Below, in pieces: positions 11,221 to 62,127 of a stretch of DNA of 64,000 nucleotides (positions are counted from its first letter, which is position 1; every line of letters starts with the position of its first letter). Under the pieces are notes generated by a model. The model did not search any database. It was not told the origin of the DNA and was given only the letters and a program-made list of their open reading frames with translations. The DNA comes from Malacoraja senta. Taxonomy: Eukaryota. Location: the NCBI GenBank assembly GCA_038087875.1, contig CM075990.1:8496001-8560000 (forward strand), written 5' to 3'. A program made the translations under genes and the position numbers.

Positions 11221-12306
11221 AGATAGGCATTCACCCAATCTTTCTCCCTCATAATGTTATTGTCATTAACTAGCATCTTCTAGTTTGCTATCCACCTGTC
11301 CTTTCTATTAGTTGCTTGGAATAAAGAAAGAAATGAGAGAAAATAATACAGAGAGAAGGAATGTTTACCAAGAGGAAGAGAAACTAAGAAAACCAGGAAT
11401 TATCGTCACCCCTCAAACACTATTTACCTTCACGATTCATATATTATGCTCAGCGAAGGTAGAAAAGCAATGTTTTGTATATATCTTCATTGCTCCTGTA
11501 TTGCACATCCATATTTATAAACTTAAAATGCTGTAGGCTTTTTGCTTATGGATATGCCAACCTGCACTTCCATTGAGTGGATTGACATGGCTATCTCTGA
11601 CAGGACAAGATCAGATGCAAACACATGGCTAATCCCCTGTAAGAGCATCTGAATCCCAGTGTCACTTACTAGTTCTCATTTCTTCTCGTTCCTTTCCCTG
11701 TCCGTGCTGTTTGCTGGCAGCTGCCTCTGTTGTCATGTCACTTGTGCCCTTGCCAGCTTTGCACGTCGTCTAAATGTCAGGAGACGCAGGGAACCGCAGC
11801 TGCTGAAATCTGGAGCGAAACACAGAGTGCTGGAGTAACTCAGCAGGTCAGGCAGCATCTATGGAGGAGGTGGACTGGCGACGTTTCACACCGGGGCCCT
11901 TCTTCAGTCCAAAGACAGGTCCTGACCTGAGACCTTGCTGTCCATTCCCTCCATCGATGTTGCCTGACCTGCTGAATTACTCCAGCACTTGGTGTTTTGA
12001 TCTCAATGTCAGGACTGGTTAAACTGAATCCAGCTCTGTAAATAAACGTGTAGGTATGAGCTCCGATTCTGTACATTGATAAGCTAAAGTAACAGAAGGC
12101 AATTGTGCCCTTCACTCTGGTCCCTCGCTTGGTCACTTTCTCACACCTCTCCTCCCAGGACAGGTTTGTTCCTTTAGAAGCCAGAATCTGATCACCCATT
12201 CTGTTCTTCATTTCTTCATTTGTAGAAAGGTTTCCGCTCCACAGAGTGTGGCTGGTATTTGCAATTCCCAACGTGGGAGGAGCATGTGTCCTTAATGGCC
12301 CATTGT

Positions 12307-12490
12307 GTTTAAGAAGGAACTGCAGATGCTGGAAAATCGAAGGTACACAAAAATGCTGGAGAAACTCAACGGGTGCAGCAGCATCTATGGAGCGAAGGAA
12401 ATAGGCAACGTTTCGGGCCTAAACGTTGCCTATTTCCTTCGCTCCATAGATGCTGCTGCACCCGCTGAGTTTCTCCAGCATTTTTGTGTA
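12307..12490. mobile_element. Fold-back Penelope-derived element with 17-bp TSD
   Basis: Inverted arms. CCTTAATGGCCCATTGT at 12290-12306 and 12491-12507. Confidence 0.85.
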
Positions 12491-12534
12491 CCTTAATGGC
12501 CCATTGTTGGCTGGGGTGAAGATCTCCTAATCAT

Positions 12535-12799
12535 CCGCTTGGGCAGTCTACATCCTGGGGGCTTGAACATTGAATTCTCCCAATTCTGCTAGCCCTTGCT
12601 GTCCCCTCCCCTTCATCAGCCATCTGGTTGTCTCCTCCCCTCCCCCAGCCCTCAGGCTCCTCCTCCGCCTTTTTCCTTTTTTCCTTTCTTCTCCCCACCC
12701 CCTATCAGTCTGAAGAAGGGTTTCGGCCCGAAACGTTACCTATTTCCTTCGCTCCATAGATGCTGCTGCACCCGCTGAGTTTCTCCAGCATTTTTGTGT
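12535..12799 (+). mobile_element. 5'-truncated Penelope-like element: endonuclease C-terminus + 3' UTR + hammerhead-like motif
   Basis: Encodes RLGSLHPGGLNIEFSQF, the end of the PLE ORF (also seen at ~33070-33100 and ~34720-34790). Pyrimidine-rich UTR. CTGAAGAAGGGTTTCGGCCCGAAACGTT at 12710-12737. TSD ATCTCCTAATCAT at 12522-12534 and 12800-12812. Confidence 0.85.
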
Positions 12800-13410
12800 A
12801 TCTCCTAATCATGCCTTGTACATTCTCATCTAACTCATCAACATAACCCACAACCGCAATGGGCCCAGCATCGATCCCTGAGCCACACCATTAGTCACAG
12901 GCCTCGAGTGACGAGCATGTTATCATTGTATAGATGCCAAGTTTGTTCCCATTGGATGGGTACTGGGCATGTTCTTAGTGGATGGACACCAAGCATCCAC
13001 TTGGTGATTTGTTTCTGGTTGGAAGGTGAAGGTATTAAAGACGCCCATCTTGTGACTGTGTAGTCTCCTTCGCAAACTGACTTGCACAAGGTGATGCGCA
13101 AATGACTTGCACAAGGTGATGCGCAAATATATCATTCTTAGCTGCATTGAAGATACATGGATTTTGACAGCTGAATAAGCGGAGCAATAATGCAACCAGT
13201 AATCTGGCTCCAGTGATCAGGCGTTGCTTAGTATGGACTTGATGAGCTGATGACCTCTTCCCATGCTGTATATTTCTGATGTTATGTGTCGTATTGTTAA
13301 TTTGTTCAATGAGACGATTTGCGATGCATTATAGAATATTCTATTAATGGTCACCTAGGTGAAGGCTGAAGGATCTGCAATGTTATTCAAACTGCCCTTA
13401 ATAGAACTGG

Positions 13411-13714
13411 AGTTTAGTTTAGTTTACGATACATCGCGGAAACAGGCCCTTAGGTCCACTGACTCCGCACCGACCAGATCCCCACATATTAACACTATCC
13501 TACACACACTAAGGACAATTTTTACATTTACCAAGCCAATTTACCTATAAACCTGTACGTCTTTGGAGTGTGGGAAGAAACCGAAGATCTCTGAGAAAAT
13601 CCACGGTGAGAACGTATACCTCCGTACAGACAGCACCCGTAGTCGGGATCGTACCCGGGTCTCCGGCACTGCAAGTGCTGTTAGGCAGCAACTCTACCGC
13701 TGCGCCACCGTGCC
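13411..13714 (-). mobile_element. tRNA-derived SINE (V-SINE/HE1-like)
   Basis: The reverse complement has a tRNA-like head (ggcacggtggcgcagcggtagag), a central V-like core (cggtttcttcccacactccaaagac) and an (aaact)n tail. Confidence 0.8.
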
Positions 13715-15059: not shown

Positions 15060-15782
15060 TCTCTCTTTGTCTTTCTCTATCTCTCTTTGTCTTTGTCCTC
15101 CCTGTCGCATTCTCTCATTCCCTCTGTCTCTCTCTCCCTCTTTGTCTCTGCCTCTGTCTCTCTGTCTGTCTCTCTCTCTACCTCTCTTTTTCTCTCTCTT
15201 TCTCTCTAACTCTGTCTCATTCTCTGTCTGTCTGTCTCTCTCAGTCTCTCTGTCTCTGTCTCCCTCGCTCTCACACAAACACACACAATGTTGTGTATCA
15301 TGGTGGAGTTTTTATCTGATTATTACTGCATTCAGCAAGATTGACATCTCTCTCTCCCTCTCTTTCTCTGCCTCTCTGTCTGTTTCTCTCTCTCCCTCTC
15401 TCTCTCTATCTCTGCTTCTTTGTCTCTTTTTCTCTCTGTCTCTCTCACTATCTGTCTCTCTCTGTCTCTCTCTCTGTGTCTCTTCCGTTCTGTCTCGTTC
15501 TCTCACTCTCTGCCTCTCTCTCACTCTCTGTCTCCCTCACTCTCACACAAACACACACCATGTTGTGTATCATGGTGGAGTTTTTATCTTGTTTCTTGTT
15601 TCTTTCTCTGTCTGTCTTTTTCTCTCTGTCTCTCTCTCTCTATCTGTCTCTCTGTCTCTCTCTCTCTGTCTCTTTTGTTCTGTCTCGTTCTCTCTCTCTC
15701 TGCCTCTCTCTCACTCTCTGTCTCCCTCGCTCTCACGCAAACACACACCATGTTGTGCATCATGGTGGAATTTTAATCTAAT
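15060..15782. repeat. CT-rich low-complexity tract with a three-copy higher-order unit (~200-270 bp)
   Basis: The block ctctcacacaaacacacaccatgttgtgtatcatggtggagtttttatct recurs at ~15268, ~15539 and ~15730, separated by (CT)n/(CTGT)n. Confidence 0.9.
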
Positions 15783-16575
15783 TATTACGCTGCATTCAGC
15801 AGGTTTGACATCAACAGCCTGCATTTTGCACAGAATTATGCCTATAATGTGCATTTTTATGTTAGTATTTCTGACACTATTTTGTGGAATAATTACCTAC
15901 CTACACAGCAAACCTTTATACCCTGTTTGTGATTCATGTCTTTTCATAGGCCCCACACAACAGTGTCTCTATGCTGCAAAAATTGAACGAACTAATGTCC
16001 AGACAAAGGTAGAAACAAAATGCTGGAGTAACTCAGTGAGGCAGGCAATACCTATGGAGAGAAGGAATGGGTGATGTTTCGGGTCGAGACCTTCTTCAAT
16101 CTAAAGAAGGATATCAAATCGAAACATCACCCATTCCTTCTCTTCAGAGATGCTGCCTGTCTCACTGAGTTACCCTGGCATTTTGTGTCTAGCTGATTAG
16201 GGATAGTCAGCCTGGCTTTTCACATGGGAGAGCTTGATTGAGTTTTTTGAAGAGGTGACCAAGAGAATTGAAGAGGGCAGGGTAGTGGGCATTAGACATG
16301 AGCCTTAACAAAGCCCTTGACAAGGTCCACCTTTGGTAGGCTGGGCCTGAAGATTTGAACTCATGGAATCAAAGATGAACTGTTGAGGGATCACCAGTGG
16401 CCAGAATACTGGGAATAATTCCCTAACTCTTTGAATAGTGACATGGGATTTTATTCTATTCCCACTATAGAGGAGAGGTGTAATCAATGCTTTATCTTAA
16501 AGAAAGTAACTCCTTTCCTTTGCTGACCCAGCATTTGTGTAGCTGGGCTAGTTAAATCAATGGTAATCCCCACAA

Positions 16576-17138
16576 ATATGAACACAAAATGCAGGAGTAA
16601 CTCAGCGGGACAGGCAGCATCTCTGGAAAGAAGGAATGGATGACGTTGCAGGTCGAGACCCTTCCTCAGACTCACGACCCGAAACGTCACCTATTCCTTC
16701 TCTCCAGAGATGCTGCATGTCCTGCTGAGTTAAACCCCTGTCCCACGGTACGAGTTCATTCCAAGAGTTCTCCCGAGTTTGCTCTGATTCGAACTTGGAG
16801 ATTTACGGTAATGGCCACTCGTCGGTACTCGGGGCTCTCGTGGACATTTTTCATCATGTTGAAAAATCTTCACGAGTCTTCCCGTGCTTACCCGCCGTTA
16901 GCGAGTCTTCCCGAGTACCTGCCGTTAGCGCTAAGAGACGTCCCAGAGCTCCGAGGTACCCGCTACGTTCATTCTCCTTGCTTACCACGAGTTTGATTTT
17001 TTTAACATAAAATACTAACATAAAAACTCGGGAGAGCTCTTGGAATTAACTTGCACCGTGGGACAGGGCTATTACTCCATAATTTTTGTGTCAATCTTTG
17101 GTTTAAACCAGAATCTGCAGTTCCTTCCTACACATTTC
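16576..17138. mobile_element. Fold-back Penelope-derived element with 13-bp TSD, interrupted by a Harbinger MITE
   Basis: GTAATCCCCACAA at 16563-16575 and 17139-17151; inverted arms. Confidence 0.8.
16733..17071. mobile_element. PIF/Harbinger-type MITE
   Basis: TIRs AACCCCTGTCCCACGGTACGAGTTCATTCCAAGAG / CTCTTGGAATTAACTTGCACCGTGGGACAGGGCTA. TTA TSD at 16730-16732 and 17072-17074. Confidence 0.88.
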
Positions 17139-19160: not shown

Positions 19161-19361
19161 TGTTTAAGGAGGAACTGCAGATGCTGGAAAATCGAAGGTA
19201 GACAAAAGAGCTGGAGAAACTCAGAGGGTGCAGCAGCATCTATGGAGCGAAGGAATAGGCAACGTTTCCGGCCAGAACCCTTCTTCGGCCCGAAACGTTG
19301 CCTATTTCCTTCGCTCCATAGATGCTGCTGCACCCTCTGAGTTTCTCCAGCACTTTTGTCT
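19161..19361. mobile_element. Fold-back Penelope-derived element with 16-bp TSD
   Basis: ACCACAATATACGATG at 19145-19160 and 19362-19377; inverted arms. Confidence 0.85.
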
Positions 19362-21326: not shown

Positions 21327-22449
21327 AGCTAGTATTTAAGAAGAATAAGCAATAAGAATAAACCAAATCCGCCTGCTCTAGCAAGCGGATATGAAAGATT
21401 GTTTAGCTCTGCTTTGAAGAAGTGTGTGAAAATTAGCCCTTGTGTCTTGGGCAAAATTGATCTCTCGATCAACTTTGTTAAAGCAAAGATTATCTGCCTG
21501 CAATTACATTGGTGTTTTGGGACCTTGTTACATGCTGTTTTGCTGCCATGAGTCCTATTGTGAAATGCTTTAGGATACCTTGAACAGGTTGTGAAAGGCA
21601 TTATAGAAGTAAACAAATATTTTCAGTTTATCCAAATGTGTTTCAAAATCTGTTGGGGACATCTTGAAATTCAGTTGCCTTGGTTATGTATGGAAGCAAA
21701 TATATGGACTGATGTAAATTGATAGCTGAATAAAAGCACAATGTATCCTTGATCATATTTCCCTGCTGATAGAACATACACTTTGGCCCTTCAAGGCAAT
21801 GGCAGATGAGTGCAATCCCATTCCACAATTACTTCTGCTGTCATCTATTCTCTTCTCCTTCTGGTCAACTCCCCAGAGTTTACCAATCACATTAGGTACC
21901 ATTTACAGAGGCCTGTTAATCTACTAACCTGCACATCTTTGGGATGTGGGAGGAAGCTAGCGTAATCAGATGAAACCAACATGATCGCTCAGAGAACTTG
22001 CAAACTCCATACAGAAAGCACCCAAGGTCAGATTGAACCTGCATCACTGATGTTGGGGGGCAATGGTTCTGTACCTGCATCTCCTTCCTAGCCGTGGCTC
22101 CTCTTTCCTGTAACACGTTCCCATCTGAAAGACTAGCAGATGCTGGTTTACACTGAAGATAGATACAAAATGCTGGAGTACTTCGCGGGACAGGCAGCAT
22201 TTTGGATACATGAGTCTCAAGAAGGGTCTCAACCCCGAAACGTCAGGCCCGTACGAAGCTTTCCAAAAAGGGGGTGGCATGACAGGATTACAAAAAATGT
22301 AATATGACGAAGCGTGAAGTCCCTCGATGCCAGTGTCTAGGGCCCACTTAAGGGCCCTGGAAGCTCTGGGATTTTAGATGCTCTCTGATGCATTCTGAGC
22401 CTTATTTTGGAGCATTTTTGCACCAAATTTATGACCAATATTTCAGAAA

Positions 22450-24465: not shown

Positions 24466-24467
24466 AT

Positions 24468-26914: not shown

Positions 26915-27325
26915 AAGGCACAAAACGCTGGAGTAACTCAGCGGGACTGGCAGCATCTCCGGAGAGGAGTGGGTGACGTTTTGTGTCGAGACCCTTCTTA
27001 ACACTGAGAGTCAGTGTGGAGAGGGAAGCTCGAGATATGGAAGGGTAAGGTGTGAAAACGACGGATCAAAGCATATGAAGCTCAAGGGAATGTAGAATGA
27101 TTCATTGTTGGCTGAGGGGATGGTGACAACAAGGGGAGGGGACTGGTGTTGCATCTCCTGCGGTTGCAGGCGAAAGTACCCAACGAGGGGGTCGTGTGGG
27201 TGGGAAGGAATGAGTTAACAAGGGAGTTTCGGAGGGAACGGTCTCTGCGGAAAGCGGAAAGCGGTAGAGATGGGAAGGTGTGGCTAGTAGTGGGATCCCG
27301 TTGGAGGTGGCAAAGGTTTGCTTGC
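26915..27325 (-). mobile_element. Penelope-like element fragment (RT-endonuclease linker joined to 3' repeat)
   Basis: HLQRDPTTSHTFPSLPLSAFRRDRSLRNSLV..GTFACNRRRCNT (27082-27348) matches the PLE linker, and is followed by the hammerhead-bearing repeat at ~26975-27005. Confidence 0.8.
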
Positions 27326-27721
27326 CATATGCTGTGTTGCCATTGCAAGGAGCAGCTGGGTGGGGTAGAGGGTTGGGGATAGTGGGCAAGTCCTGCAATG
27401 AAGAGGCCTTACAATGCACGTTCTGAAGACTTTGTGAGGGGAGGTGATCGCTGAAAGATGTGACACAAACTTTCTAAGAGTGTTGAATGGACAGTGCTAT
27501 TGGTGTTTGCCTTTGGCCTGATAAGACTACACTGGGACATAGCAAGGGGAGTGAGTGCCTGAGAGCAGAATTTGATGGACAAGTGGAGTGATATGGAGGT
27601 TAACAATTTAACTGTTCACTACCAGATAGATAGTTTGAAGGGAAACTGGCAAAAAATCATGGTTCACATGGGAAATCTACAATCATCAGGTTCTTGATCC
27701 ATTATACGCCCTAATTCTACC

Positions 27722-27948
27722 TCTGTGTATGAAGGAACTACAGATGCTGGTTTACACCGAGGATAGACACAAAATGCTGGAGTAACTCAGCAGGAAAGAC
27801 AGCATCTCTGGATCAAAGGAATGGGTGACGTTTCGGGTCGAGATCCTTCTTCAGACGCAGTCCCAATTGGGAGTATTGGGAACTCAGTCTGAAGAAGGGT
27901 CTCGACCCAAAACGTCACCCATTCCTTCCATCCAGAGATGCTGCCTGT
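27722..27948. mobile_element. Fold-back Penelope-derived element with 12-bp TSD
   Basis: CCTAATTCTACC at 27710-27721 and 27949-27960. Inverted arms around a hairpin-like spacer. Confidence 0.8.
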
Positions 27949-28271
27949 CCTAATTCTACCATGACGGTAGAACACTATGGTTAATCTCTTGCCCTACAGT
28001 AGACTTGTATTTTTTTAATTAATTTGATTTTTCTAATCTTTTGTAATTTTTATTGATTTGCTTTTTGCATTAATCGCTTGTATTTTGTGTGCACAACCTT
28101 CTTCCTTTTAGAAATGTTATATATAATTGATGTATGATTTGTTTTTGTTTGTTTAAGTCTATTTGCCTGTGGCACTGCTGCAAGCAAGATTAGTCATTAT
28201 GCTGAAGATAGACACAATATGCTGGAGTAACTCAGTGGGACAGGCAGCATCTCTGGAGGGAAGGAATGGGT

Positions 28272-28299
28272 GACGTTTCGGGTCGAGACCCTTCTTCAG
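28272..28299 (-). ncRNA. Minimal type I hammerhead-ribozyme-like motif (consensus copy) in a Penelope-derived repeat
   Basis: Minus strand CTGAAGA-A-GGGT-CTCG-ACCC-GAAAC-GTC: CUGANGA and GAAA core boxes, 4-bp stem II, palindromic ACGU helix III, GUC cleavage triplet. Helix I is weak. Confidence 0.65.
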
Positions 28300-30184
28300 A
28301 CTGAGAGTCAGAGGAAAGGGAAATGAGGGGTATCGACGGTCATGTAGAGAGATATAGAACAAATGCATGAAAATCCCACTGAGTTACTCCAGCATTTTGT
28401 GTCTATCCTCGGTTTAAACTGGCATCTGCAGTTCCTTCCTACACATTTTGTCCTTATACTTGTAGCTCATTGTACATGCATATGAGGCAATAAAAACCTG
28501 TCTTGCATCAGTGCCATAGGATAGAATCACTCTGATTCTCCCATATGGAGTTTGCCCATTTTGGAGAGAGGTGTAAGAACAGCAGCAGAAGCAGCAAGAT
28601 AGCAGTTTTAGTATGCTGTATTTTTAATATTTTTTTGGATAACATCAGCAACATACTGTCAAAAGTCGTCAAATGGTGAGCCACCTTATTGAAGCAGCAC
28701 AGTATTGAAGCATCTGTGAGTCTGAAGAAAGGTCTCACCTGAAACAGCACCTATTCTATTTCTCCAGAGAAGTTGCCTAACCCGCTGAGTTACTCCAGCA
28801 TTTTGTGTCTGAGGGAAGTTGCTTTATTTTATTGTCCTGCTTTATCTCTTCAGGCCAAGATAGACACAAAAAGCTGGAGTAACTCAGCGGGCTAGGCAGC
28901 ATTTCTGGAGAGAAGGAATGGGTGACGTTTTGGGTCAAGACTCTTCTTCAGACCTCTTCAGTCACCCGTTCCCAACAGTGTTAGACCAGCTGATGAAGGG
29001 TCTCGACCCGAAATGTCACCTATTCCATTTCTCCAGGGAAGCTGCCTGACCCGCTGAGTTACTCCAACATTTTGTGTCTATCTTCACAATAAAGTTATTC
29101 GTAGGCAACTTTTTTGGGTCAGGACCCTTCTTCAGACTGATGTCTGATTAAGGATCCCGAATCCCCAACATTGACTGTCCATTCCCTCCACGGATGCTGC
29201 CTGACTCGCGGAGGTACCTCGGCACTTTGTGCTTTGCTCATGATCCCAGCATCTGCAGTTGCTTATCTCTCTAAGGTACTTGTACAATTAAATCACATTG
29301 TAAAATGAAAATACTGGCCTCCCCGTGGCTAAGTTGACTCTCCATAAAAGCAGTACAATTTTGTTCATTTTTCCATTTCGTTCTATCATTACCGAACATT
29401 CCCCCCCCCCCCCCCCTCATATATCTCATATATATATGGAGCTATCTTTTGAAAGATTATTACATTTGCTTCCACCATGGTTTCATGAAGTGCATTCACT
29501 GAATTGTAACAGTTCAACATATTTTTTTTTAATCCTCATCCCCACTCTTGTATTTTTTTCAAATCTATCTTCTGTGCTTCCCGAACCTTAAGGCAGTGGA
29601 ATCAATTTCACCCTATTGATCAGCCCAAACCCCTTGTGATCCTGAACACCAAAATGAAATCTCCATTAACCTTGTCTGAGAGAGAACAAACTCATTTTCT
29701 TCAATGTCTCCGGAGTTAGGCCATAGAGATGCAATAATCTCGTTGAACAGTGCTACGGGTTGAAGAGGAAAAATGGGCTTTTTCTTTTCTTATGTTTCAA
29801 TCAAGGTAACTGGATCTGCTCATCCCTGGGGCTGTTCCAGTGAATCCTCTTTATGCCTCTCCAAGGCTAACATCAGTAGTAGGGGAATTATTGGAAGACA
29901 TTCTGAGGGACAAGATTAATGGTCATCTGGTAAGTCAAGGACTAATCAGAGATAGCCAGCATGGTTTTCTCCAGTAGAGATACTGCTTGACAAACCTGAA
30001 TGACATTTGACGAAGTGTATTGATGAGTGTAGTGCAGTAGATGCAGTAGAATTTAATTGTACCTAGGTACATGTGACAATAAAGTATCATTTGTTCTTTC
30101 ATTCATTCATTCATTCATTCATCCATTCATTCACTCATTTATTCATTCAGAGATGTGGTTTACATGGACTTATTGAAGAGCTTA

Positions 30185-32678: not shown

Positions 32679-32854
32679 CTATCCTCGATACTTCGATACT
32701 TCCATTGTCCTGCAGCCCACCCTTTATGCAAATGTTCCTCAATTTGTCCACAACCATCATTCCGCAAATTCATCAGTCAGAGGGTAGTTAATCTGAGGAA
32801 CTCATTGCCACTGAAGGCTGTGGACACGCATCTCACATATTTGATGCCAAAGAG

Positions 32855-33350
32855 AGACAAAAATGCTGGAGAAACTCAGCGAGTGAGGCAACATCTATGG
32901 AGCGAAGGAAATAGGTGACGTTTCGGGTCGAGACCCTTCTTCAGATTGATGTGAGGGTGAGGGGGAGCGGGAAGAAGAAAGGAAAAGGCGGAGCCAGTGG
33001 GCTGAGGGAGAGCTGAGAAGGGGAGGAGAAAGTAGGGACTAGCTGCAATTAGAGAAGTCAATGTTCATACCGCTGGGGTGCAAACTGCCCAAGCGAAATA
33101 TGAGGTGCTGCTCCTCCAAATAACGGTAGTCCTCACTCTAGCCATGGAGGAGGCCCAGGACAGAAAGATCGGATTCGGAATGGGAGGGGGAGTTGTAGTG
33201 CTGAGCCACCGGGAGATCAGGTTGGTTATTGCGAACCAAGTGGAGGTGTTGGGCGAAGCGATCGCCAAGCCTACGCTTGGTCTCAACGATATGGAGCAGC
33301 TGACATCTAGAGCAGCAGATGCAATAAATGAGGTTGGAGGAGGTGCTGGT
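32855..33350 (-). mobile_element. Penelope-like element 3' fragment: GIY-YIG endonuclease remnant + 3' UTR + hammerhead-like motif
   Basis: TSSNLIYCICCSRCQLLHIVETKRRLGDRFAQHL..PVAQHYNSPSHSESDLSVLGL (33138-33440 ORF) is the PLE GIY-YIG domain. It continues to EEQHLIFRLGSLHPSGMNIDFS, then an intact core at 32917-32944. Confidence 0.9.
32917..32944 (-). ncRNA. Minimal hammerhead-ribozyme-like motif ~100 nt downstream of the PLE endonuclease ORF
   Basis: Minus strand CTGAAGAAGGGTCTCGACCCGAAACGTC. Confidence 0.65.
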
Positions 33351-34174
33351 AATGCCAACCTTTTTGATGCCAACCTTGGTCAACAAGTTAGAGGATGGTC
33401 CTCTACCCCAGGAGGCAAGGAGATCCTCTGAGAAAATCACAGTGGACTGAGAAACCCATGTTTGTGGAGAGGAATTTGGGCCATGCAGCTTCAGGAGGTG
33501 AATGCACTGCTTCCGATGATCTAGTTAAACATCTTGACCCTGTTTAGGTGATCTCTTTTCTCACATCCACCACACAGCAAAGCATTCTCATTTTTATTGA
33601 ATGGTGGACAGGCTCACTGAATCGCACCTTAACAACAACGACCCAGGGGAAGCCGTCCTCCCAGTTTGTGTCGCAATTTGCCAGGTAATTCCTTGCAGCT
33701 GCCTATTTAAAAATCAAATTTCGTATTCTGAGTCGTTTAGTTGAGTGTTCTGTGGAATGATAGACTGCCAGATAGCAAAATGAATTAGTGACCTTGTCAT
33801 TTTCAAGCTTATTACAAAGGAACACATGTATTTCTATACGCCTTTCATAGCTGCAGTATGTCCCAAAGCATTTACGACTAACAGACTACTTTCCAAGTGT
33901 AATCGCTTTTGTAATGTAGAAAGCATGAGAAGCAATTTGTGCTCAGTAAGTATTCACGAACATGATGCTCACAATGGCCAGATAATTTGTTTTAAATAAT
34001 GATATTGATTGAAGGATAAATATTAACTTGCACCCAGGAATAACTTCTCAACCCTTCTCCAAAATTGTGCTGCGGGATATATCACTTCCACCTGGAATAT
34101 CAGACAGGGCATAAGTTTAAGATCTCATCAGAAACCCTTATCATTGACTTTGACAACCAAACAAGTAAGTTGGC

Positions 34175-34810
34175 TAAATCTCAGTGGGTCGGGCAGCATC
34201 ACTGGAGCACATGGATAGGTGATGTGTAGGAAATGCAGATATTGGTTTACACTGAAGATATAAACACAAAATGCGGCTGGAGTAACTCAGCGGGACAGGC
34301 AACATCTCTGGAGAGAACGAATGGGTGACGTTTCGGATGTTGCCTGTCCTGCTGAGTTACTCAGGCATTTGGTGTCTATTTATGGATAGGTGATGTTTCA
34401 GGTCGGGAGGAGGGGGGGGGGAGGGGGGTGGGGGGGTAAAGAAAGTTGGAAGTGAGAGGCAGGATGAAGCCTGGCAAATAATATGTTGATGCACGTTGGC
34501 AGAAGGGGTGGTTGATAGGTAGCTGGTCGGACAAAGGCCTGGGAAGAAAGAACAAGAAGGGGCGAGACAAAAGAATTGAAGAGTTGTGAGCTGTGGAGCT
34601 GAGGAAGGAATTTAGATGGAAGGGGAGGGTGAGGAGAGAAATTGATGTAAGTTCAGGTGGGGGACAAACGAAGGAGGGGGTGAGGAAAGGGGGTGGGGAG
34701 GGGATTTAAGTTACCTAAAATTGTAGAATTCAATGTTAATGCCGTTTGGTTATAAGCTACCCAAGCGGAATACGAGGCGCTGTTCCTCCAGTTTACGTGT
34801 GGCCTGGTTT
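34175..34810 (-). mobile_element. Penelope-like 3' fragment with a nested fold-back repeat
   Basis: The minus strand of ~34715-34800 reads RKLEEQRLVFRLGSL*PNGINIEF. Purine-rich UTR on the plus strand. Nested fold-back at ~34225-34378. Confidence 0.7.
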
Positions 34811-37734
34811 GGCTCACATTAACGCACCTCAGGCAAAGAATGCTGCATTGGTATGGCCACAGAGTTTATTCAAACGCAGTGACATACATGGTAGAAACAA
34901 GGTCTGAGGAAGGGTCCCAACCCAAAACGTCACCTATCCATGTTCTCCAGGGATGCCGCTGAGTTACTCCAGATCTTTTGTGGGTTTTTTTTAAGAGACA
35001 AACGTTCTGTCAAGGTAACTCAAAAGAAGGCCGTGATTCATTTGTAGCTATGAGTGGTAGCGAGTGAGGCAAGAACTGAATGGGGCCACTCGGGGCATGT
35101 ATGAATTCAAGCTGGACATTACTGATTGAGACCAGAAAATACTGCCACATGATACCGGGCACACAAGTAGCATCAATAGACGCATATATCCACAGTACAC
35201 TCACGCACAGAATCTTGCATCTCTACCCAAAGGTGTTGCATTAATTTAGCCATCAAGCTTTACCTTTCAACACATACATGTAGTATTCACATATACTGTA
35301 CATAACACTGCTTCTGTGGACACATGCCACACGGGTGGTATTAACATTCATATGAGACTATGTCCCACAACACTTCCATAGCTTAATTCCATGGAACCTA
35401 TTTTCTCTCTGCTAAATATATCTCTTGCACAATGGCGTGACATATTTTTAGGATAACAGATGAGATTCCAGTTAGGATCACAGATAATCATTGATTACAT
35501 TCTCTTTCTGAGAATCCACTCTCTCAGCGTGTGACTTTGAAGTTTCAATACTTTTAACTAATTGGCCCTTAAAGCCAAAGTCTCTTCCACTCTTCATAGG
35601 TTTTCTCCCAGAATAAATGGAACATTGGAACACATTTACTTTTTTCATTATTAATTCAATTTGGATAATTTCCAAAGCTCCCAAATGCTTAATTTGAAAA
35701 TAAGAATTACACAAGACGATCTCAGAGCAATGGTTCTGTAGCATAAAGCAAAGCAAACAGCATTGCATTGTGTATTGAGCAGAGGTTGTGAAAAATGAAT
35801 AGGAGGGTAAGGAATAATCAGTCATGAAATTCTTTAAACAAGATTCAGGATTTATTGCGTTCATTCTGCATGTGAGTGATGTCTAAGCATCTTTTGGTTA
35901 CAAAGACCACAATTTTTTTTGCAACTAATAGATGACAGCTTTCTTTCACTGGAACTTTAAAAGCTGCATCATTTTCCTCTTGAGATGCTTGATGCAATCC
36001 TGTAATCCACAAAGCTCCCCGAATAAATTTGTTACACCTCATTAATTGGATTATTGACTCTAGCATCTCCAGGAAGAAAATTCTTAAAGATACTGCACCT
36101 TAGCAATTCAAAGCTAATTGGAGCCAGCATATTAAGGAATTTGTTGTATATGTTCCTTGCTGTGCAGTTCCTGCGAGATTTGTCTGATGTTATTTTGTCG
36201 CAAACCAGGATGGCTGCTGTTCGTTTGATGTTGTTACGGTTGACAATTTGTAAAACTATAAATAAAACTCAATTTTCTTTGTCCATTGAAGTGCTGCGCA
36301 TTGATTCCATATGCCAATGGATGAGATATGATGCAAGGATGGAAAGGCATTAATCTTTCCTCAACTGATAAAATGAAAGACAAAAAACGGACAAGTATTT
36401 TAGGGCCCAAGACATAACGATAGGGTCTTTAGAGCAAGGGAAAAGGTTGTCAGGAAGTACTACTTCACATCGAGGAGAGAAGAACTCAGAGGTGAATTGA
36501 TACATCGGGCTGGGGAATACTGGATTTACTTGAGACAGTGACTGGGAATGGACTGATGACTGCATATCATTTGATTGTGATGAACTACCTCATCCATGTA
36601 TTTCGATGAAAGTACACAATCCTGCAACTGTGTGGGAAAAGCATCTCCCTTGTAATATCCAGGGATCATAGAGTCATACACCATGGAATCAGGCCTTTTG
36701 GCCCCACCTGTCCACGCTGACCAGGCTACCCCATCTACACTAGCCCCACCTGCCCGCATTTGGCCTAAATCCCTCTAAACCTTTTCTGTGGGGTTTGGAA
36801 TGAGGTTGGAAGGGAAATATAGATCAGTCATGATTGAATGGGGGAGTAGACTTGATGGGCCAAATGGCCTAATTCTGTTCCTTCAACATGAACCTATGAA
36901 CTTATGAACTTAACCATGAGCCTGTCCAAATATCTTATAAAAGTCGTTATAGTACCTGCCTCAGTTACCTCCTCTGGCAGCTCATTCCATCTGTGTGGAA
37001 ACGTTGCCGCTCAGATTCCTATTAAATCTTTTCCCTCTCACCTTAACACTATGTGCTGTGAATTGACACAAGTTTGTTTTTTATTAGGTTCCATTGTAAG
37101 ATATGCAGTTTGTTGCAAAATGTGTTTTTAATGATCAGCTTGGTGAATAATGCTGCTTAGCAACCTTAGTCTCTTTGCATAAATCGCCAGGTGAGGGATC
37201 TTGTAGACAATTATTTCAAAATAAAATGGGTTTAACAATAAAATGTTTTACTTTTTTTTAAAATATTTTTGTTTCAGCCATACTGCTATAATTTGTATCC
37301 CATGCTCAGCGACATATCTAATATATCAGTTCATTTGTAATTTTTTGCTTTTGGTTTGCTGCCTTTGAGAGAATTCTTTAATGTGATTTTCTGCTGACGT
37401 TATGTACTGCCGTCACTGTTGCTGGAGCTGAGGGAGTCTTTGCAACTGTGCCTGACAGAAGCAGGCATCGAGAATGGGAAAGGCCACAGCATAACGTTCA
37501 CCAGATCTTTGCAGACATCTTTTCTTGAGGCGCGTTGCCTTGGACCCAAGCACTAAGTTCACCATTGATCAGAATTATTGTGCAGTAATAAAATTAATGA
37601 TCATGTTGTTACTAGGTGGTGGTGAGGAACTGCAAAATGGGGTCAGAGGTGGATAGGAAACATTGGCATCTTTGGATTGCTTCCTAAAAGTTAAGGCACA
37701 TCTGCTATTTTGTGCATTAATTTTAGGTAGATTA

Positions 37735-45376: not shown

Positions 45377-46716
<1,340 letters not shown>

Positions 46717-47410
46717 GAGGAATTGGTTAACAAAGCTCTAAAGTGCACTGTTAGAAATGCCTGAGAGTTTCTAAGTGACATTCAACAACTTGAGCGCGCC
46801 ATTTTGTCATCTTAGGGGAGAGGGAAATGCATTCAAGGTAATACCGGTCACATATTTTAAAATGTACCAAGTGGGTTCATGTTAAATTTAAAAAGCGACA
46901 TACTAGTAGACTCGCAGGCAAACCTATCATGAAAGCTTTGGAAGTGGCATTGCTTCTCACAGGTGAGTGTGTGCAATTCATCTATGTACATTTATATTAC
47001 ATCAGATCTCATTCATACCCAGTTTGTTATAAATTACTCCTTCAAATTGATAAATGGGTGGGAAGGTGCAATTTAGAGGCTGCAATCAGGCGCTACAGAT
47101 ATGTAGCTGTGTAAATAATTTATTATGCCGCTTTTGTTTTAATGAGGATTAAGATGAAAACATAACTGCTGGAGAATTGTTGAAGCAAAATTAACTGTGA
47201 ACCATGTTTTCTTTATTCTGCAGATACAAATCTTTTAGACAAAAAGGTAGTAACTGTTCCCACGGTTACAGCAGAGATCATTTTGGTCAGCAGCGATATT
47301 GAACAACTTTAGATGTTGTCTTGTTCAGCTTGTTATCAGCATGAACAATTCTCTAATATCTGGGGGAACTATGTAATTAGACAGCTCCTTTGCAACGACA
47401 CAATGAGTTG

Positions 47411-47619
47411 TGTAGGGATGAACTGCAGATGCTGGTTTACACCGAGGATAGGCACAAAATGATAGAGAAACTCAGCGGGACAGGCAGCATCTCTGAAGAG
47501 AAGGAATGGGTGGCGTTTCAGGTCTGAAGAAGGGTCTCGACATGAAACATCACCCCTTCCTTCTCTTCGGAGATGTTGCCTGTCCTGCTGAGTTACTCCA
47601 GCGTTTTGTGTCTGTCTTT
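47411..47619. mobile_element. Fold-back Penelope-derived element
   Basis: Inverted arms; diverged TSD gacacaatgagttg / gacacaattaattg. Confidence 0.75.
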
Positions 47620-48005: not shown

Positions 48006-48224
<219 letters not shown>

Positions 48225-49849: not shown

Positions 49850-50452
49850 AAAAGGAAGGATGTGGAGACTTTGGAGAGGCTACAGGAGGGATTTACCAGC
49901 ACGCTCCCAGGATTAGAGGGGGGCAGCTATAAGGAGAGGATGGAGAGACTTGGATTGTTTTTTTCTCCAGGAACGTAGAGTTTGAGGGGAGACCTTATTG
50001 AAATATATAAAATGATGAGAGGAATAGATAAGGTAGATAGTCAGAACCTTTTTACCCATGGTGGAAATTTAAAGATTGGAGGACATAGCTTGTAGGTGAG
50101 AGGGGCAATGTTTAAAGGAGATGTGCGTGGCAAGTGTTTTACACGTGGAGTAGTGGGTGCCTGGAACACGCTGCCAGGGGTGGTGGTGGAGGCAGATACG
50201 ATAGTGGTGTTTTAGAGGACAGGCAGAGAATGGAGGGATATGGATTGCAGGCAGAAGAGATTAGTTTATCTTGCCATGTAGGAAGGAACTGCAGATGCTG
50301 ATGTGAACCGAAGATAGACACAAACAGCTGGAGTAACTGAGTCCCGCTGAGTTACTCCAGCTTTTTGTGTCAATCTTAGCTTAACTTTGCTTCATGTTCG
50401 GCACAGACATTGCGGGCTGCAGGGTCAGTTCCTGTGCTCTATTATTCTATGT
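49850..50452 (+). mobile_element. Old CR1 3' fragment with a nested Penelope-derived fold-back (50277-50375)
   Basis: Degenerate similarity to the CR1 ORF2 C-terminus and 3' UTR elsewhere in the window. Confidence 0.7.
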
Positions 50453-51785
50453 TCTCTCACTTGCTTACAGCACGCTGGGGTTGGATAACGTCTCCAAGGG
50501 TATGTCAGTATTTACTGGGAACGTGCAAGTGTTCGCAGGGGGAATATCTGAAACAGCTCAGTGTTTTGCTGGCTTCTCTCGGGACAGTGTTATGGTTCAT
50601 AGGGGATGCAGACAAGCATGTCCTTAATTCCACGAGTCAGTCCATGTTCCTGGATCTGTGTCCTTGGTTGTGGTTTAGTATTTATCAGGAAATTGTTTCG
50701 AATCATCTTCTCAGGTACATTTCCTTCTGACTAGCAGCATGTAAAGGGGCCCAATTTAGCATCGTTCAGTAGTTTGATTAGTACGGGTGTCAGGGGTTAT
50801 GGGGAGCAGGCAGGAGAATGGGATTAGGTGGGAGAGATAGATCAGCCATGATTGAATGGCAGAGTAGACTTGATGGGCCAAATGGCCTAATTCTGCTCCT
50901 ATCACTTATGAACATGAACTATGGGCTAAGGCAGATGATGGGTGCTTAGTTAAAGTGGACAGTGGGCTGAGGCAGATGAGCCCAAGATGTACGATGATCC
51001 TGAAGCCTATATGAAGGGCTGGATGGAAACCAGGTTGAAACTGAACTAGTCCAGTCTCAGTGACCAGTTGCAAATAAAGTGACCTTAAGTAAGCCCATGT
51101 GTGGAGGATGGAACTGCAGCTTCTGGTTTAAACTGAAGAAAGACACAAAAAGCTGGAGTAACTCAACAGGTCAGGCAGCCTCTCTAGAGAAAAGGAATAG
51201 GTGACGTTTCAGGTCGAAACCTCAGGTTACTCCAGCTTTTTGTGTTTATCATAGACATCTCTACCACAGAAAGCAGCAGAAGCCAAATAATAAAAATATT
51301 CTCAGAAAAGTTAGATGTAGTTCCATGGCTAAAGAGGTTAAAGGATCAGATATAAAAGCAGCAACAGAGGACTAAATTTGGATGTGTAGGTGCTGGTTTA
51401 AACCAAAGGTGACGTTTCAGGTCGAGACCCTTCTTCAGGTCAGCCACCATCGTAATGAATGGTGCAACAGAGTAGTCTTGCTTTCCCCCTCTCTCCATCC
51501 CTGCCCCTTCCCAGTTCTCCGACCAGTCTGACTGTCTTCAGCTACATTATATCTCTGTTTGCTTTGTTGTTAGCTTCTCCCAGCTAACAATGATCTATTC
51601 TACATTTTCCGTGATCTCCACCCTCTTTGTCCTGTTTCACACCTTACACTTCCTTATCTCTGTATCTCCCTCTCCCCTGACATCAGTCTGAAGAAGGGTC
51701 TTGACCCGAAACATCACCCATTCCTTCTCTCCAGAGTTGCTGCCTGTCCCACTGAGTTACTCCAGCATTTTGTGTCTATATATAG

Positions 51786-57760: not shown

Positions 57761-57765
57761 CGCTC

Positions 57766-57973
57766 GTGCAGGAAGGAACTGCAGATGCCGGTTTACATCG
57801 AAGACGAAACACAAAATGCTGGAGTAACTCAGCGGGACAGGCAGCACCTCTGGGTAGAAGGAATGGGTGACGTTTTGGGTCTGAAGAAGGGTCTTGACCT
57901 GAAACGTCACCCATTCCTTCTATCCAGAGATGCTGCCTGTCCCGCTGAGTTACTCCGGCATTTAGTGTCTATT
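57766..57973. mobile_element. Fold-back Penelope-derived element
   Basis: Inverted arms; core at 57881-57908 flanked by TGGGT/ACCCA. Confidence 0.75.
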
Positions 57974-58403
57974 TCCCATAGTCTCTTGTGCTTCCACTGA
58001 GACACCCATTGGATATCTGTTGTACTGCAGGTGAAAACCACGTTGAATTCTCACGGTCTGTGAATTGATCATCTGCCGTTTTTATATCATTGTTTCCTTC
58101 TGATCTGGTATTTCAAATGCCTTTTAAAATTATGAGATGCATAGATAGGGTAAACAACCAAAACCTTTCTCCCAGGGTGGAAATATTAAGGTCTAGAGGG
58201 CATAACTTAAAGTCAGAGGGGCAAAGTTGAAAGGAAATATGCAAGACAAATTTATTACACAGAGGGTGGTGGATGCCTGAAACACGCTGCCAGGGGTGGT
58301 GGTGGAGGTAGATATGATAGTGGTATTAAAGAAGCATGTTGATATGCAAGTGATGGAGGGATATGGATTAGGTCTAGGCAGAGGAGATTAGTTAACGTGG
58401 CAT

Positions 58404-58639
58404 GAAGATAGACAGAAAAACCTGGGGTAACTCAGCGGGACAGGCAGCATCTTTGGAAAGAAGGAATGGGTGATGTTTTGGGTCGAGACCCTTCTTCAGA
58501 CTTCAGACTCCGGAGAAGGGTCTCGACCCAAAACGTCACCCATTCCTTCTCTCCAGAGATGCTGCCTGTCCTGCTGAGTTATTCCAGCTTTTTGTGTCTA
58601 TCTTCGGTTTAAACCAGCATCTGCAATTCCTTCTTACAC
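58404..58639. mobile_element. Fold-back Penelope-derived element with 14-bp TSD inside an old CR1 3' end (58130-58710)
   Basis: AGTTAACGTGGCAT at 58390-58403 and AGTTAACTTGGCAT at 58640-58653. Confidence 0.82.
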
Positions 58640-58767
58640 AGTTAACTTGGCATCATGTTCAGCATAGACAATTGTGGACTGAAGGGTCTGTTCCTGCTCT
58701 GTACTGTTCTAGATTAGTTACAGGATGCTGTATTACTGTAACACTCAGGTCTGATTATTTTACACAA

Positions 58768-59062: not shown

Positions 59063-59736
59063 CTCATTTAATTCCTGAATATAATCAAAGGCCATTTTAA
59101 TGTCATAATTTTTTCTCTACTGATGTTACTTGCATCGGTACTGGAGATTCTTTGGTTTCAAAACACGTTCGGTGTGAACGTTCGGCATCAGGGTAGGTTT
59201 TCATTTCCTCTTTGCTGGGCTGGAAATGACTTGTGAATACTCCCTTGTAATTAATGTACGTGTAGCGATTTTCTTCATTTAAGCTGTGGTTTCAACTTTC
59301 CACGTTGGCATTACATCTGGACAGAACGAGTGAAAAATCTATTGGTTTTCAATATGTCAGATTTACACAAATAAATAAAATATTGTGGTATTTACAAAGA
59401 TAATGGTTGAATTGATTTTGCTCAGTTTGATAAATTTCATATCATGATTTGACCTGTGAATATCATGGTTAAAGGCTAAGCAATCTATTTTCTCTTTACC
59501 GGTGCCCATAGAATTTCCGCCAGTAACTGTTGTCACAGGAAGGTCATTTAATACTGTTGACTATTTTTTCCAAGAAAAAACGTGATTTTCAAATATTGGA
59601 AGATATATATAGTTGCTAGATATTGCGCTTAAATAAATGTCAGCTGTTGCCAAGTAGAACATTCATCTATCTGTTAATGAAAGTTTCCTGAGCTAGTCCA
59701 CAGGTTTCATTATACATCAGGTTGACATCATGGTGC

Positions 59737-60015
59737 AGTAGACAGTAGACAATAGACAATAGGTGCAGGAGTAGGCCATTCGGCCCTTCGAGCCAGCACC
59801 GCCATTCAATGTGATCATGGCTATGCATCCACAATCAGTATCCCGTTCCTGCCTTCTCCCCATATCCCCTGACTCCGCTATCTTTAAGAGTCCTATCTAG
59901 CTCTCTTTTGAAAGCATCCAGAGAACCTGCCTCCACCGCCCTCTGAGGCAGAGAATTCCACAGACTCACAACTCTCTGTGTGAAAAAGTGTTTCCTCGTC
60001 TCCGTTCTAAATGCC
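59737..60015 (-). mobile_element. CR1 3' end
   Basis: FRTETRKHFFTQRVVSLWNSLPQRAVEAG; (TTGTCTA)n tail. Confidence 0.88.
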
Positions 60016-60882
60016 TTACCGGGCGGATACTGGGGAGGCGGGGGGGAGGGTAAATAATGCTCTATCAGAGGGACCACTTTAGTCTGTCAGGTGAGTGTAA
60101 AATAACCCATGCTGCGATACATTGAATATCAGTAATAGTAGCAGAAGTAGGGATAGCAGTGATTGAGCAGGTAGGACTGCTCGTCGTTGAATGACGCAGA
60201 ATGTGCAAAACGTGTGGAGACCTCACGTGTACAGTATAGACAGCCCTTGTGTAAAGTTAAAGAGAGCCCGTGTATAAAAGTACAGAGATCCCACGTGTAA
60301 AAGTATAGTGAGTCTATGTGTAAAAGCATAGAGAACCCAGAATTCTTTACCAGAATTCTTTACAGTACATTTCAGTTGCCCATCAGAAGAGCGGGTCATT
60401 CTGAACAGAGTTCTGAGGGGGAGCAAAAAGGATCAGTGAAAGGTACAGAAGACAGCACGGAGTTGTTAAAATAAATTTATTTTATTTTTGGAGGGGTGAA
60501 GGTATAGGGAAAAAGTGATGTGCATTTGGTGTAGTTTGTGTGAATTTTAGCAAGATACTTAACAAGAGTTCATATGGCAGATGAATCAGAAAAGACCGAG
60601 ATCCCCCAAAAATGGTCAGATTGGATATGAAGTTGGTTCAGTGGCAGAAAACAATGCACCAAGGTCAAACGGTATTTTACTGCCTGCAATCCATGCGCAA
60701 TGTGGTTCTACAGAGCCTAGGGCTGGGTCTCTTATATTAAGAATTCAGATTTGCAAGTGGCAACTTAACATGTTTGCAAATCTATCTTTGGTTATATAGT
60801 TGAAGGCAAGGAAGGGAGTTTAGAGTGCAGGAAGATATCAATGAGATTGTTGGATGGGCAACAAGGAGAGTTCAGTCCAGTT

Positions 60883-61202
60883 GGCGGCACGGTGGTGCAG
60901 CGGTAGAGTTGCTGCCTTACAGCGCTTGCAGTGCCGGAGACCCGGGTTCGATTCCGACTGTGGGTGCCGTCTGTACGGAGTTTGTATGTTCTCCCAGTGA
61001 CCTGCGTTGATTTTCTCCGAGATCTTCGGTTTCCTCCCACATTCCAAAGACGTACAGGTATGTAGGTAAATTAGCTTGGTAAATGTGAAAATTGTCCCTT
61101 GTGTGTGTAGAACAGTGTTAATATGTGGGGATCGCTGGTCGGTGCGGACCAGGTGGGCCGAAGGGCCTGTTTCCGCATATCTCTAAACTAAAATAAACTA
61201 AA
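60883..61202 (+). mobile_element. Full-length tRNA-derived V-SINE (HE1-like) with CR1-derived tail
   Basis: A box tggtgcagcgg, B box ggttcgattcc, V-like core, CR1-type tail gggccgaagggcctgtttcc, (taaac)n end. Confidence 0.85.
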
Positions 61203-61928
61203 TGTGAGGTAATGTATTTGAGAGTGAAGACAAGAGAAGGAAGAATTGAAACATGCAGAGGATATGGAGGAAATCTGATCCACTTGAATAAATGGGTTTG
61301 CATTCATTGTGTTAGATATTCACTGATAGCTAAAAGTAGCAAGACAGGTGGACATTGAATATATGAATAGTGCATACACAGGGAACTGCTGATGCTGAAA
61401 TGTTCAGCCAAGCACAAAGTAGTGGAGTGACTCTGTCAGGCAGCATCTGTGGAGAGAATGGACAGGTGATGTTTTGGGTCAGGGCACTTCTTCACACCGA
61501 TTATTGCATTTTGGACATTGGATATTCAATCTTGATATTGGATACTTGTCTTCAGCATGTGAGGCTTGAACCACAAGTGCAAGGAATACATGTTGCTAGT
61601 TATGCATCAGACAAATGTTCTTCCAAATATCACAATAAGGAAATGATAGCATTTGAGATGTCATAAAGGAGATTTAAGAGAGATTCAAGATTCAAGTTTC
61701 AAGATTCAAAAGAGTTTGTTGTCATGTGTCCCTGATATAACAATGAAATTCTTGCTTTGCTTCAGAGTGTTACCAGGGTTAGAAATTCTAGATATAGGTA
61801 GAATTCTAGATATATCTAGAATTATATCATAATACTAGATTACCTGAAATAGAAGGGGCTGAGCTAAGTTTATAAACAAGATACCAAGTGCTGGAGAAAC
61901 TCAGCGAGTCAGTCAGTATCTCTGGAGC

Positions 61929-62127
61929 TAGACACAAAAAGCTGGAGTAACTCAGCGGGACAGGCAGCATCTCTGGAGAGAAGGAATGGGTGATATTTCG
62001 GGTCGAGACCCTTCTTCAGACGTCACCCATTCCTTCTCTCCAGAGATGCTGCCTGTCCCGCTGAGTTACTCCAGCTTTTTGTGTCTATCTTCAGTGTAAA
62101 CCAGCATCTGCACTTCCTTCCTACACA
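61929..62127. mobile_element. Fold-back Penelope-derived element nested in an older copy (61880-62315)
   Basis: Near-perfect inverted arms. Confidence 0.8.

What the first reader, a model, noticed from the sequence alone, without database searches (positions are those of the whole stretch)
12290..62127. Abundant fold-back elements with 10-17 bp TSDs are Penelope-derived and look retrotransposed rather than MITE-like
Seen: many 180-240 bp elements are made of two inverted arms of the same consensus, usually with one arm more complete and with variable breakpoints. They are flanked by variable-length direct repeats: 17 bp (12290/12491), 13 bp (16563/17139), 16 bp (19145/19362), 12 bp (27710/27949) and 14 bp (58390/58640). 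The same consensus lies directly downstream of PLE ORF remnants at 12535, 26915, 32855 and 34175. Established: Penelope-like elements often insert with an inverted partial copy of their 3' repeat. Inference: these hairpins are extreme-truncation or non-autonomous PLE products in which the inversion is created anew at each insertion. They make up a major source of potential dsRNA hairpins in this region.
Basis: partly seen in the sequence, partly recalled or inferred. Interest (0 to 1): 0.72.

Follow-up and report, generated by a model that had tools for sequence, protein, structure and literature searches.

The report
Short hairpin Penelope-like retroelement insertions
These hairpin-shaped repeats are short, back-to-back copies of the end of a Penelope-like jumping gene, a known insertion pattern; the one unexpected detail is that very many copies stop at the same base, which may mark where the element's RNA begins.

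Summary
All five target duplications are at the stated places, and 4 of 4 Penelope-like (PLE) ORF remnants lie upstream of the repeat in the same orientation. The repeat is the 3' end of a Neptune-type PLE pseudo-LTR with a minimal hammerhead motif. I count 20 fold-backs by hand. Their 3' ends face outward, and 17 of 20 carry a 36-38 nt tail on exactly one arm. This is the published PLE 'inverted copy plus tail' structure, not a MITE. In 5 units each arm holds sequence the other lacks, so two primings are needed and the inversion is made at insertion. The scan reported this pattern twice before on other DNA. New here: 5' ends are not random. 29 of 38 arms stop at the 5' edge of the hammerhead motif (2.3 expected). 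Contigs of three organisms show 800-1200 ends per base there, with unrelated flanks and often an extra G. This may be run-off cDNA from a capped transcript start; unproven. dsRNA is potential only: transcription was not shown.

The parts
2392..9620 (.). Fold-back (core arm plus 12-nt tail arm) split by a nested TIR element, which itself holds another fold-back and a LINE
   Evidence: not scanned as one unit for a duplication
2522..2722 (.). Fold-back, core/core, centre at the TCAG-N-CTGA near-palindrome, inside the TIR element; no duplication found
11783..12000 (.). Fold-back of an older subfamily, tail left; duplication 14 nt, 1 mismatch (11769-11782 / 12001-12014)
12307..12490 (.). Fold-back, tail left; duplication 17 nt (12290-12306 / 12491-12507); arms 79/83 identical
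12535..12799 (+). 5'-truncated PLE copy: last codons of the endonuclease, pyrimidine tract, hammerhead motif, core end; own 13-nt duplication (12522-12534 / 12800-12812), no inverted arm
16004..16194 (.). Fold-back, core/core, centre at the near-palindrome; no duplication found
16576..17138 (.). Fold-back, tail right, interrupted by a TIR element at about 16733-17071; duplication 13 nt (16563-16575 / 17139-17151)
19161..19361 (.). Fold-back, tail left; duplication 16 nt (19145-19160 / 19362-19377); both arms share one variant seen in no other arm
22126..22245 (.). Degenerate fold-back, tail left, short right arm; no duplication found
26916..27351 (-). PLE remnant: RT-endonuclease linker with the Cys motif (last Cys lost in this copy), endonuclease missing, then pyrimidine tract and repeat core
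27722..27948 (.). Fold-back, tail left, 29-nt spacer with short internal repeats, right arm ends early; duplication 12 nt (27710-27721 / 27949-27960)
28204..28444 (.). Fold-back: core arm running about 70 nt into the upstream tract, short tail arm; used (28195-28372) as the reference for public contigs
28299..28304 (-). 5' edge of the hammerhead motif (sense TCAGTC): the bases where 5' ends pile up in the window and in contigs of three organisms
28858..29087 (.). Fold-back, core/core, 37-nt spacer partly templated from the element; no duplication found
29102..29270 (.). Degenerate fold-back, tail right; not scanned as one unit for a duplication
32852..33398 (-). PLE remnant: GIY-YIG-type endonuclease region with one stop codon, pyrimidine tract, hammerhead motif, core end
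34175..34818 (-). Older PLE remnant (endonuclease C-terminus, long pyrimidine-rich tract, degenerate repeat core) into which the 34226 fold-back inserted
34226..34381 (.). Fold-back, tail left; duplication 15 nt (34211-34225 / 34382-34396)
47410..47619 (.). Fold-back, tail left; duplication 13 nt with 2 mismatches; same centre junction as 57766
50277..50375 (.). Short fold-back, tail left; possible decayed duplication (16 nt, 5 mismatches, not counted)
51100..51255 (.). Fold-back, tail left, short right arm; no duplication found
57766..57974 (.). Fold-back, tail left; no duplication found
58404..58639 (.). Fold-back with near-complete arms, tail right; duplication 14 nt, 1 mismatch (58390-58403 / 58640-58653)
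61926..62125 (.). Fold-back, tail right, inserted in an older repeat copy; duplication 12 nt, 1 mismatch (61914-61925 / 62126-62137)
63802..63994 (.). Fold-back, tail right; 6 nt of a possible duplication, cut by the window end

Best explanation
Each fold-back is one dead-on-arrival insertion of a Neptune-type Penelope-like element. The GIY-YIG endonuclease makes staggered nicks on both strands of the target (inferred). Each 3' end primes a cDNA on element RNA, usually one at the tail end and one at the core end 36-38 nt further in (end positions shown; priming inferred from in-vitro work on the anole element). Both cDNAs are short, most often because they run to a fixed 5' edge just before the hammerhead motif (shown). 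Their free 3' ends are joined head to head by microhomology, at the TCAG-N-CTGA near-palindrome, or with a short templated filler (junctions shown; repair route inferred). Fill-in leaves duplication, antisense arm, sense arm, duplication. The hairpin is therefore made anew each time and is not the mobile unit. Why the 5' edge is fixed is the open step: I put 40% on its being the physical 5' end of a capped transcript, 25% on palindrome annealing or RT stalling, 20% on a splice-acceptor-linked cause, 15% other.
For: Polarity: of 19 adjacent opposite-strand pairs, 17 have 3' ends outward (P 0.0004). Two 3' end clusters. Tail on exactly one arm in 17 of 20, on none in 3, on both in 0 (hand count; P 0.0009 if arms were independent). 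Variable 12-17 nt duplications in 8 of 18 units against 4 of 400 controls. In 5 units (16576, 28204, 47410, 57766, 61926) one arm has the tail and the other has 5' sequence the tail arm lacks, so neither can be a copy of the other. Centres differ: of 190 pairs among 20 centres, 3 reach 19 of 25 matching bases; the one exact junction repeat (47410/57766) shares no rare variant and is no closer than other copies. Public contigs show 290 joint kinds on a single-arm reference, the 15 best supported held by at most 29 contigs per run. 4 of 4 ORF remnants upstream, same strand. Literature: inverted 5'-truncated copy and 30-40 bp tail at one end are typical of PLEs (PMC8557442, passages; PMC3846280, results read, with 8-10 bp duplications); the anole protein cuts and extends both strands and starts at two sites that bound the tail (PMC11167929, main text).
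Against: 8 of 18 scanned units have no passing duplication. 3 of 20 have no tail. Arms are more alike than the median of other copies in 16 of 16 pairs and share rare variants in 9 of 16, which fits one RNA primed twice but also later gene conversion or copying of one arm from the other. Three centres sit at the same near-palindrome and two share one junction, as a propagating subfamily would also give. One fold-back lies inside a TIR element and could travel as a passenger. One search showed only 15 of 290 joints and did not count all of them. No intact autonomous copy was seen, and no genome was held. The in-vitro data are for a Poseidon-type element, not Neptune.
Confidence: 0.8

Rival explanations
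1. Propagating non-autonomous hairpin subfamilies: a fold-back formed once, is transcribed and is retrotransposed whole by the PLE protein.
For: One junction occurs twice (47410, 57766) and three centres lie at the same near-palindrome. Some opposite-strand joints recur in 5-29 contigs per run in three organisms.
Against: The two copies with the same junction share no rare variant. Both outer ends sit on priming sites, though copying a hairpin RNA would fix only one end (inference). 290 joint kinds, none dominant among those shown.
Confidence: 0.07
2. Snap-back: one cDNA folds on itself and the second arm is copied from the first.
For: Arms are unusually alike in some units (79/83 at 12307, 75/79 at 19161 with a shared variant found in no other arm).
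Against: In 5 units each arm has sequence the other lacks, which a self-copy cannot give. It may still apply to units where one arm is nested in the other.
Confidence: 0.08
3. MITE: a non-autonomous DNA transposon whose arms are terminal inverted repeats.
For: Small size, inverted arms, very high copy representation (about 219,000-257,000 contigs laid per DNA run).
Against: Ends are asymmetric (tail on one side), duplications vary from 12 to 17 nt, the same sequence occurs as single arms and behind PLE ORF remnants.
Confidence: 0.02
4. Two separate insertions or later rearrangement placed solo copies back to back.
For: The repeat fills 9.4% of the window, and two fold-backs did insert into older copies.
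Against: One duplication brackets both arms in 8 of 18 units; polarity is 17 to 2.
Confidence: 0.03

Closest known systems
Complex insertions of canonical EN+ PLEs: adjacent inverted 5'-truncated copy plus 30-40 bp tail (PMC8557442 passages; PMC3846280 results)
   Same: Inverted copy joined at the truncated 5' ends, tail at one end only, variable duplication around the whole unit, hammerhead motif in the pseudo-LTR.
   Different: Here both copies are usually cut to about 100-135 nt, so only the hairpin remains; duplications are 12-17 nt against 8-10 in the rotifer paper; 5' ends pile up at one edge, which I did not find in the parts read.
Neptune clade (CX2-5CxxC linker before a C-terminal GIY-YIG endonuclease; Nematis also has such a linker) (PMC8557442)
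   Same: 34 of 38 long relatives carry the linker motif; the window's 27145 remnant has it with the last Cys changed.
   Different: No RT sequence in the window and no tree built, so Neptune versus Nematis was not tested; no microsatellite targeting evident in the duplications.
Anole Poseidon element PAc in vitro (PMC11167929, main text)
   Same: Both strands cut and extended; two internal start sites bounding the tail; uncleaved hammerhead RNA used as template (no 5' ends at the predicted cleavage site among 64 arms here).
   Different: Different clade; the paper's text does not discuss inverted copies, truncation or transcript start. Its supplementary figures were not readable as text and may bear on 5' ends.
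Minimal hammerhead motifs of metazoan PLEs (PMC4209133, results and discussion) and non-LTR retrozymes (bioRxiv 10.64898/2026.07.22.740005, introduction, methods, first results)
   Same: Core motif with an extra base before helix II; pairs on opposite strands 100-700 bp apart and many solo motifs were already noted in Schistosoma.
   Different: Retrozymes are head-to-tail tandem arrays of canonical-type units; here units are mostly head-to-head or solo.
L1 twin priming (PMC11702581, passages)
   Same: Both target ends prime; discrete 12-18 bp duplications; microhomology at the inversion junction; an extra G marks full-length 5' junctions.
   Different: L1 inverted parts are adjacent, barely overlapping stretches of one RNA; here both arms cover the same 100 nt.

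Membership tests
EN+ Penelope-like element | C-terminal GIY-YIG endonuclease with CCHH-type motif | tested here: met
   33048-33398 is 75% identical to proteins with Pfam GIY-YIG matches (E 0.0013-0.00014, near or at the cut-off); the window fragment alone had no Pfam hit.
EN+ Penelope-like element | PLE-type reverse transcriptase in the same ORF | tested here: inconclusive
   No PLE RT remnant in the window; the relative P0004 and its long homologues carry RT-like sequence before the endonuclease.
EN+ Penelope-like element | Pseudo-LTR sequence downstream of the ORF, same strand | tested here: met
   4 of 4 remnants.
EN+ Penelope-like element | 30-40 bp tail at one end, inverted truncated copy, variable duplication | tested here: met
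   tail also seen as loose ends in contigs of other organisms.
EN+ Penelope-like element | Pseudo-LTR includes the ORF N-terminus | tested here: inconclusive
   Profile of 12 relatives' N-termini scored translated arms at E 1.6 or worse.
Neptune clade | CX2-5CxxC linker between RT and endonuclease | tested here: met
   34 of 38 long relatives; degenerate in the window copy.
Neptune clade | RT phylogeny | not tested
   No RT in the window and no named reference set.
Minimal hammerhead ribozyme | Core boxes and helix II | tested here: met
   Core largely conserved in 26 copies; helix II 90% paired. Rfam gave no match at gathering score.
Minimal hammerhead ribozyme | Covariation or self-cleavage | tested here: inconclusive
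   Covariation no higher than shuffles (462 of 500 reach it); cleavage not testable.
MITE | Symmetric fixed terminal inverted repeats | tested here: not met
   Tail on one arm in 17 of 20.
MITE | Constant short target duplication | tested here: not met
   12-17 nt, variable.
Non-LTR retrozyme | Head-to-tail tandem units each with a hammerhead | tested here: not met
   4 of 23 adjacent pairs are tandem, and those are partial units or nested insertions.

The most novel reading that the evidence does not exclude
The fixed 5' edge is the capped transcription start of the element. Because the PLE protein primes internally about 100-135 nt from the RNA's 5' end, it mass-produces run-off cDNAs; two of them joined give the hairpin, one gives a solo copy, and the cap leaves an extra G. 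Short copies would then be a built-in by-product of internal initiation (and could re-seed themselves as SINE-like units if the promoter is internal), and the genome would hold a very large in-vivo read-out of both PLE priming sites and of the transcript start.
Probability: 0.4. Interest if true: 0.62.

Novelty: new member of a known kind. Interest (0 to 1): 0.37.

Why it matters
The hairpin pattern itself is known and was found twice before in this scan. What could matter is mechanism: how PLEs make inverted copies and tails is described as unresolved (PMC8557442). This family gives many short insertions with both priming ends, the junction and the duplication within 250 bp. They support two primings per insertion in vivo, and the sharp 5' edge makes a precise prediction about the transcript start that one 5'-end sequencing experiment would settle. 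For annotation, these elements should be classed as PLE fragments, not MITEs.

Tried and rejected
Genome-wide table: no genome is held, so contigs laid on one arm were the substitute. Rfam: no match. Pfam on the window's PLE fragments: no match. A search with P0003 returned unrelated LINE-type RTs because that protein is chimeric; not used. N-terminal profile test of the translated arms: not significant. Hammerhead covariation: not above shuffles. A single arm folds no better than shuffles (z -0.15). Summed contig depth falls steeply beyond the 5' edge, but the tool says it cannot rank parts and other subfamilies have different upstream sequence, so it is not used. The possibly-RNA run X21 holds the repeat (4,780 contigs) but is not shown to be RNA, so it is no evidence of transcription. 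5' ends at the predicted hammerhead cleavage site: none among 64 arms, so cleavage there does not set the edge. A shared spliced leader: loose ends at the edge agree at only 0.31-0.32, against it. Extra G in the window alone: 5 of 8 hand-picked unambiguous ends, P 0.06, not significant. Which arm reaches further 5': core arm 8, tail arm 4 (hand count), not significant. The duplication scan found nothing of 10 nt or more around the solo ranges tested. Ten paper searches gave no paper on this family in cartilaginous fish or on a 5' pile-up; Repbase, Dfam and subscription journals were not searched, so this is weak evidence of absence.
Full report
Observation. A profile made from 12 window copies finds 69 hits covering 9.4% of the window and none in the reversed sequence. 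By hand I count 20 fold-backs (centres); 14 are 180-241 nt. Of 18 scanned as whole units, 8 are bracketed by a 12-17 nt repeat with at most one mismatch, against 4 of 400 random position pairs. Eight have none that passes, one has 13 nt with 2 mismatches, and one is cut by the window end. The lengths are upper bounds, since a few bases at the ends also match the element. No genome is held for this window.

What the repeat is. The fragment at 33141-33332 is 79-83% identical to two predicted skate proteins and 57% to an unnamed one; these carry weak Pfam GIY-YIG matches. With them as queries, four remnants appear in the window, and each lies upstream of a repeat copy on the same strand. One, 12535-12799, has its own 13-nt duplication and no inverted arm. 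Of 38 long relatives, 34 have the CX2-5CxxC linker that marks Neptune and Nematis rather than Penelope/Poseidon (PMC8557442, passages). In element sense the repeat starts with a minimal hammerhead motif: core boxes, an extra base, a 4-bp helix II, as described for metazoan PLEs (PMC4209133, results and discussion). Rfam does not detect it and covariation is not above shuffles, so activity is unproven.

Anatomy. 3' ends fall in two clusters, 34 of 69 at the core end and 24 of 69 at a tail end 36-38 nt further. Of 19 adjacent opposite-strand pairs, 17 have their 3' ends outward. The tail is on exactly one arm in 17 of 20 units, on neither in 3 and on both in none (P 0.0009 if independent). This is the published PLE pattern: an inverted 5'-truncated copy next to the element and a 30-40 bp tail often at one end only (PMC8557442; PMC3846280, results). 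Hammerhead pairs on opposite strands 100-700 bp apart were already noted in 2014. Two earlier notes of this scan reached the same verdict on other DNA; I saw them after forming my reading, and they are not independent support.

Mechanism. The anole PLE protein cuts and extends both target strands and starts at two internal sites that bound the tail (PMC11167929, main text). That predicts what is seen: duplication, antisense arm, sense arm, duplication. In five units one arm has the tail and the other has 5' sequence the tail arm lacks, so two primings are required and snap-back copying is excluded for them. Centres are mostly different; three sit at the TCAG-N-CTGA near-palindrome, two share a junction with a 3-nt overlap but no rare variant, and two have short fillers that look templated. 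Laid on one arm, public contigs give 290 joint kinds, of which 15 were shown, each in at most 29 contigs per run; not all joints were counted. Against a clean reading: arms are more alike than the median copy in 16 of 16 pairs and share rare variants in 9 of 16, which fits one RNA primed twice, one active subfamily at a time, or later conversion.

The 5' edge. Truncation is not random. Of 64 arms with E below 1e-5, 38 reach the start of the hammerhead core; 9 run on into the element's pyrimidine tract and 29 stop there, where the rate inside the arm predicts 2.3 (run-on was judged by pyrimidine content, which assumes all subfamilies have such a tract). In contigs of three organisms, 802-1112 loose ends follow window base 28301 and 932-1218 follow 28302, with median lengths of 166-255 nt and agreement of 0.31-0.32, meaning unrelated flanks (only the top six places per run were shown). 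These are the G and the A just before the core. The commonest next letter after 28302 is an element-sense G in all three runs, and after 28301 in two of three, although the element's own next base differs. All 8 opposite-strand joints shown have one side at 28299-28304, and head-to-tail joints run from 28301 to the core end. The other side of those joints lies beside a variant in my reference and may be biased. In L1, an extra G at full-length 5' junctions reflects the cap (PMC11702581, passage), and the sequence here fits the initiator consensus with that A as +1 (consensus recalled). I infer, at 40%, run-off cDNA from a capped start, made possible by internal priming near the RNA's 5' end. 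Rivals: the same bases form a near-palindrome that lets two cDNA ends anneal; and they look like a splice acceptor, and in Drosophila virilis Penelope an intron ends at the 5' side of the hammerhead, with the start 46 bp before the intron. Against my reading: the window's own G count is not significant (5 of 8, P 0.06), untemplated addition needs no cap, and a start here would leave no AUG in the open frame that follows. No 5' ends map to the predicted ribozyme cut.

dsRNA. Sixteen of 19 local inverted repeats of at least 40 nt come from this element, and two tested units fold as near-perfect hairpins (z -19.7 and -23.2). Whether this region is transcribed was not shown.

Verdict. Real, PLE-derived, retrotransposed, not a MITE; a new family-level example of a known insertion structure. 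The sharp 5' edge with an extra G is the one feature I did not find in the papers read or in ten searches; supplementary figures of PMC11167929 could not be read and repeat databases were not searched. Interest 0.37.

Noticed in passing
window 2420-9531 and 16733-17071: Two elements with matching terminal inverted repeats and a 3-nt TAA/TTA-type duplication inserted at the same site of the PLE repeat core in two different copies; Harbinger-like by recollection only.
   Followed up: partly
window 2881-8870 (-): Apparently full-length L1/Tx1-like LINE with two open frames (771 aa; 1232 aa with endonuclease, RT and zf-RVT matches) and a poly(A) tail, nested in the first TIR element. The Tx1 label is recalled.
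   Followed up: partly
window 50261-50391 and 58390-58653: The only two copies of one LINE 3' segment found in the window are each interrupted by a fold-back at nearly the same base, with different arms and opposite tail side; hints at target preference, n = 2.
   Followed up: partly
window 34175-34410 and 61871-62190: Two fold-backs inserted into older copies of their own repeat; about what chance gives at 9% coverage.
   Followed up: partly
window 22817-23044: Three partial repeat units head to tail; public contigs also show head-to-tail joints from the 5' edge to the core end.
   Followed up: no
window 26916-27351 (-): The linker region runs into the 3' tract without the endonuclease; could be an internally deleted non-autonomous derivative.
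   Followed up: no
window 27724-27857 (-) and other tail-bearing arms: One reading frame is open from the CUG of the hammerhead core to the tail end in many copies, with no AUG; its last residues resemble a motif near the N-terminus of related ORFs, but the profile test was not significant.
   Followed up: partly
window 40140-43850 (-): Large decayed CR1-like LINE with RT match; many further LINE fragments elsewhere.
   Followed up: no
window 23974-24446: The longest inverted repeat in the window (107 nt, 93%) is LINE-derived, an inverted LINE insertion with a short PLE repeat piece at its junction.
   Followed up: no
window about 30185-30385 and 56195-56395: Two 200-nt assembly gaps; long microsatellite tracts at about 15000-15900 and 45300-46700.
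   Followed up: no
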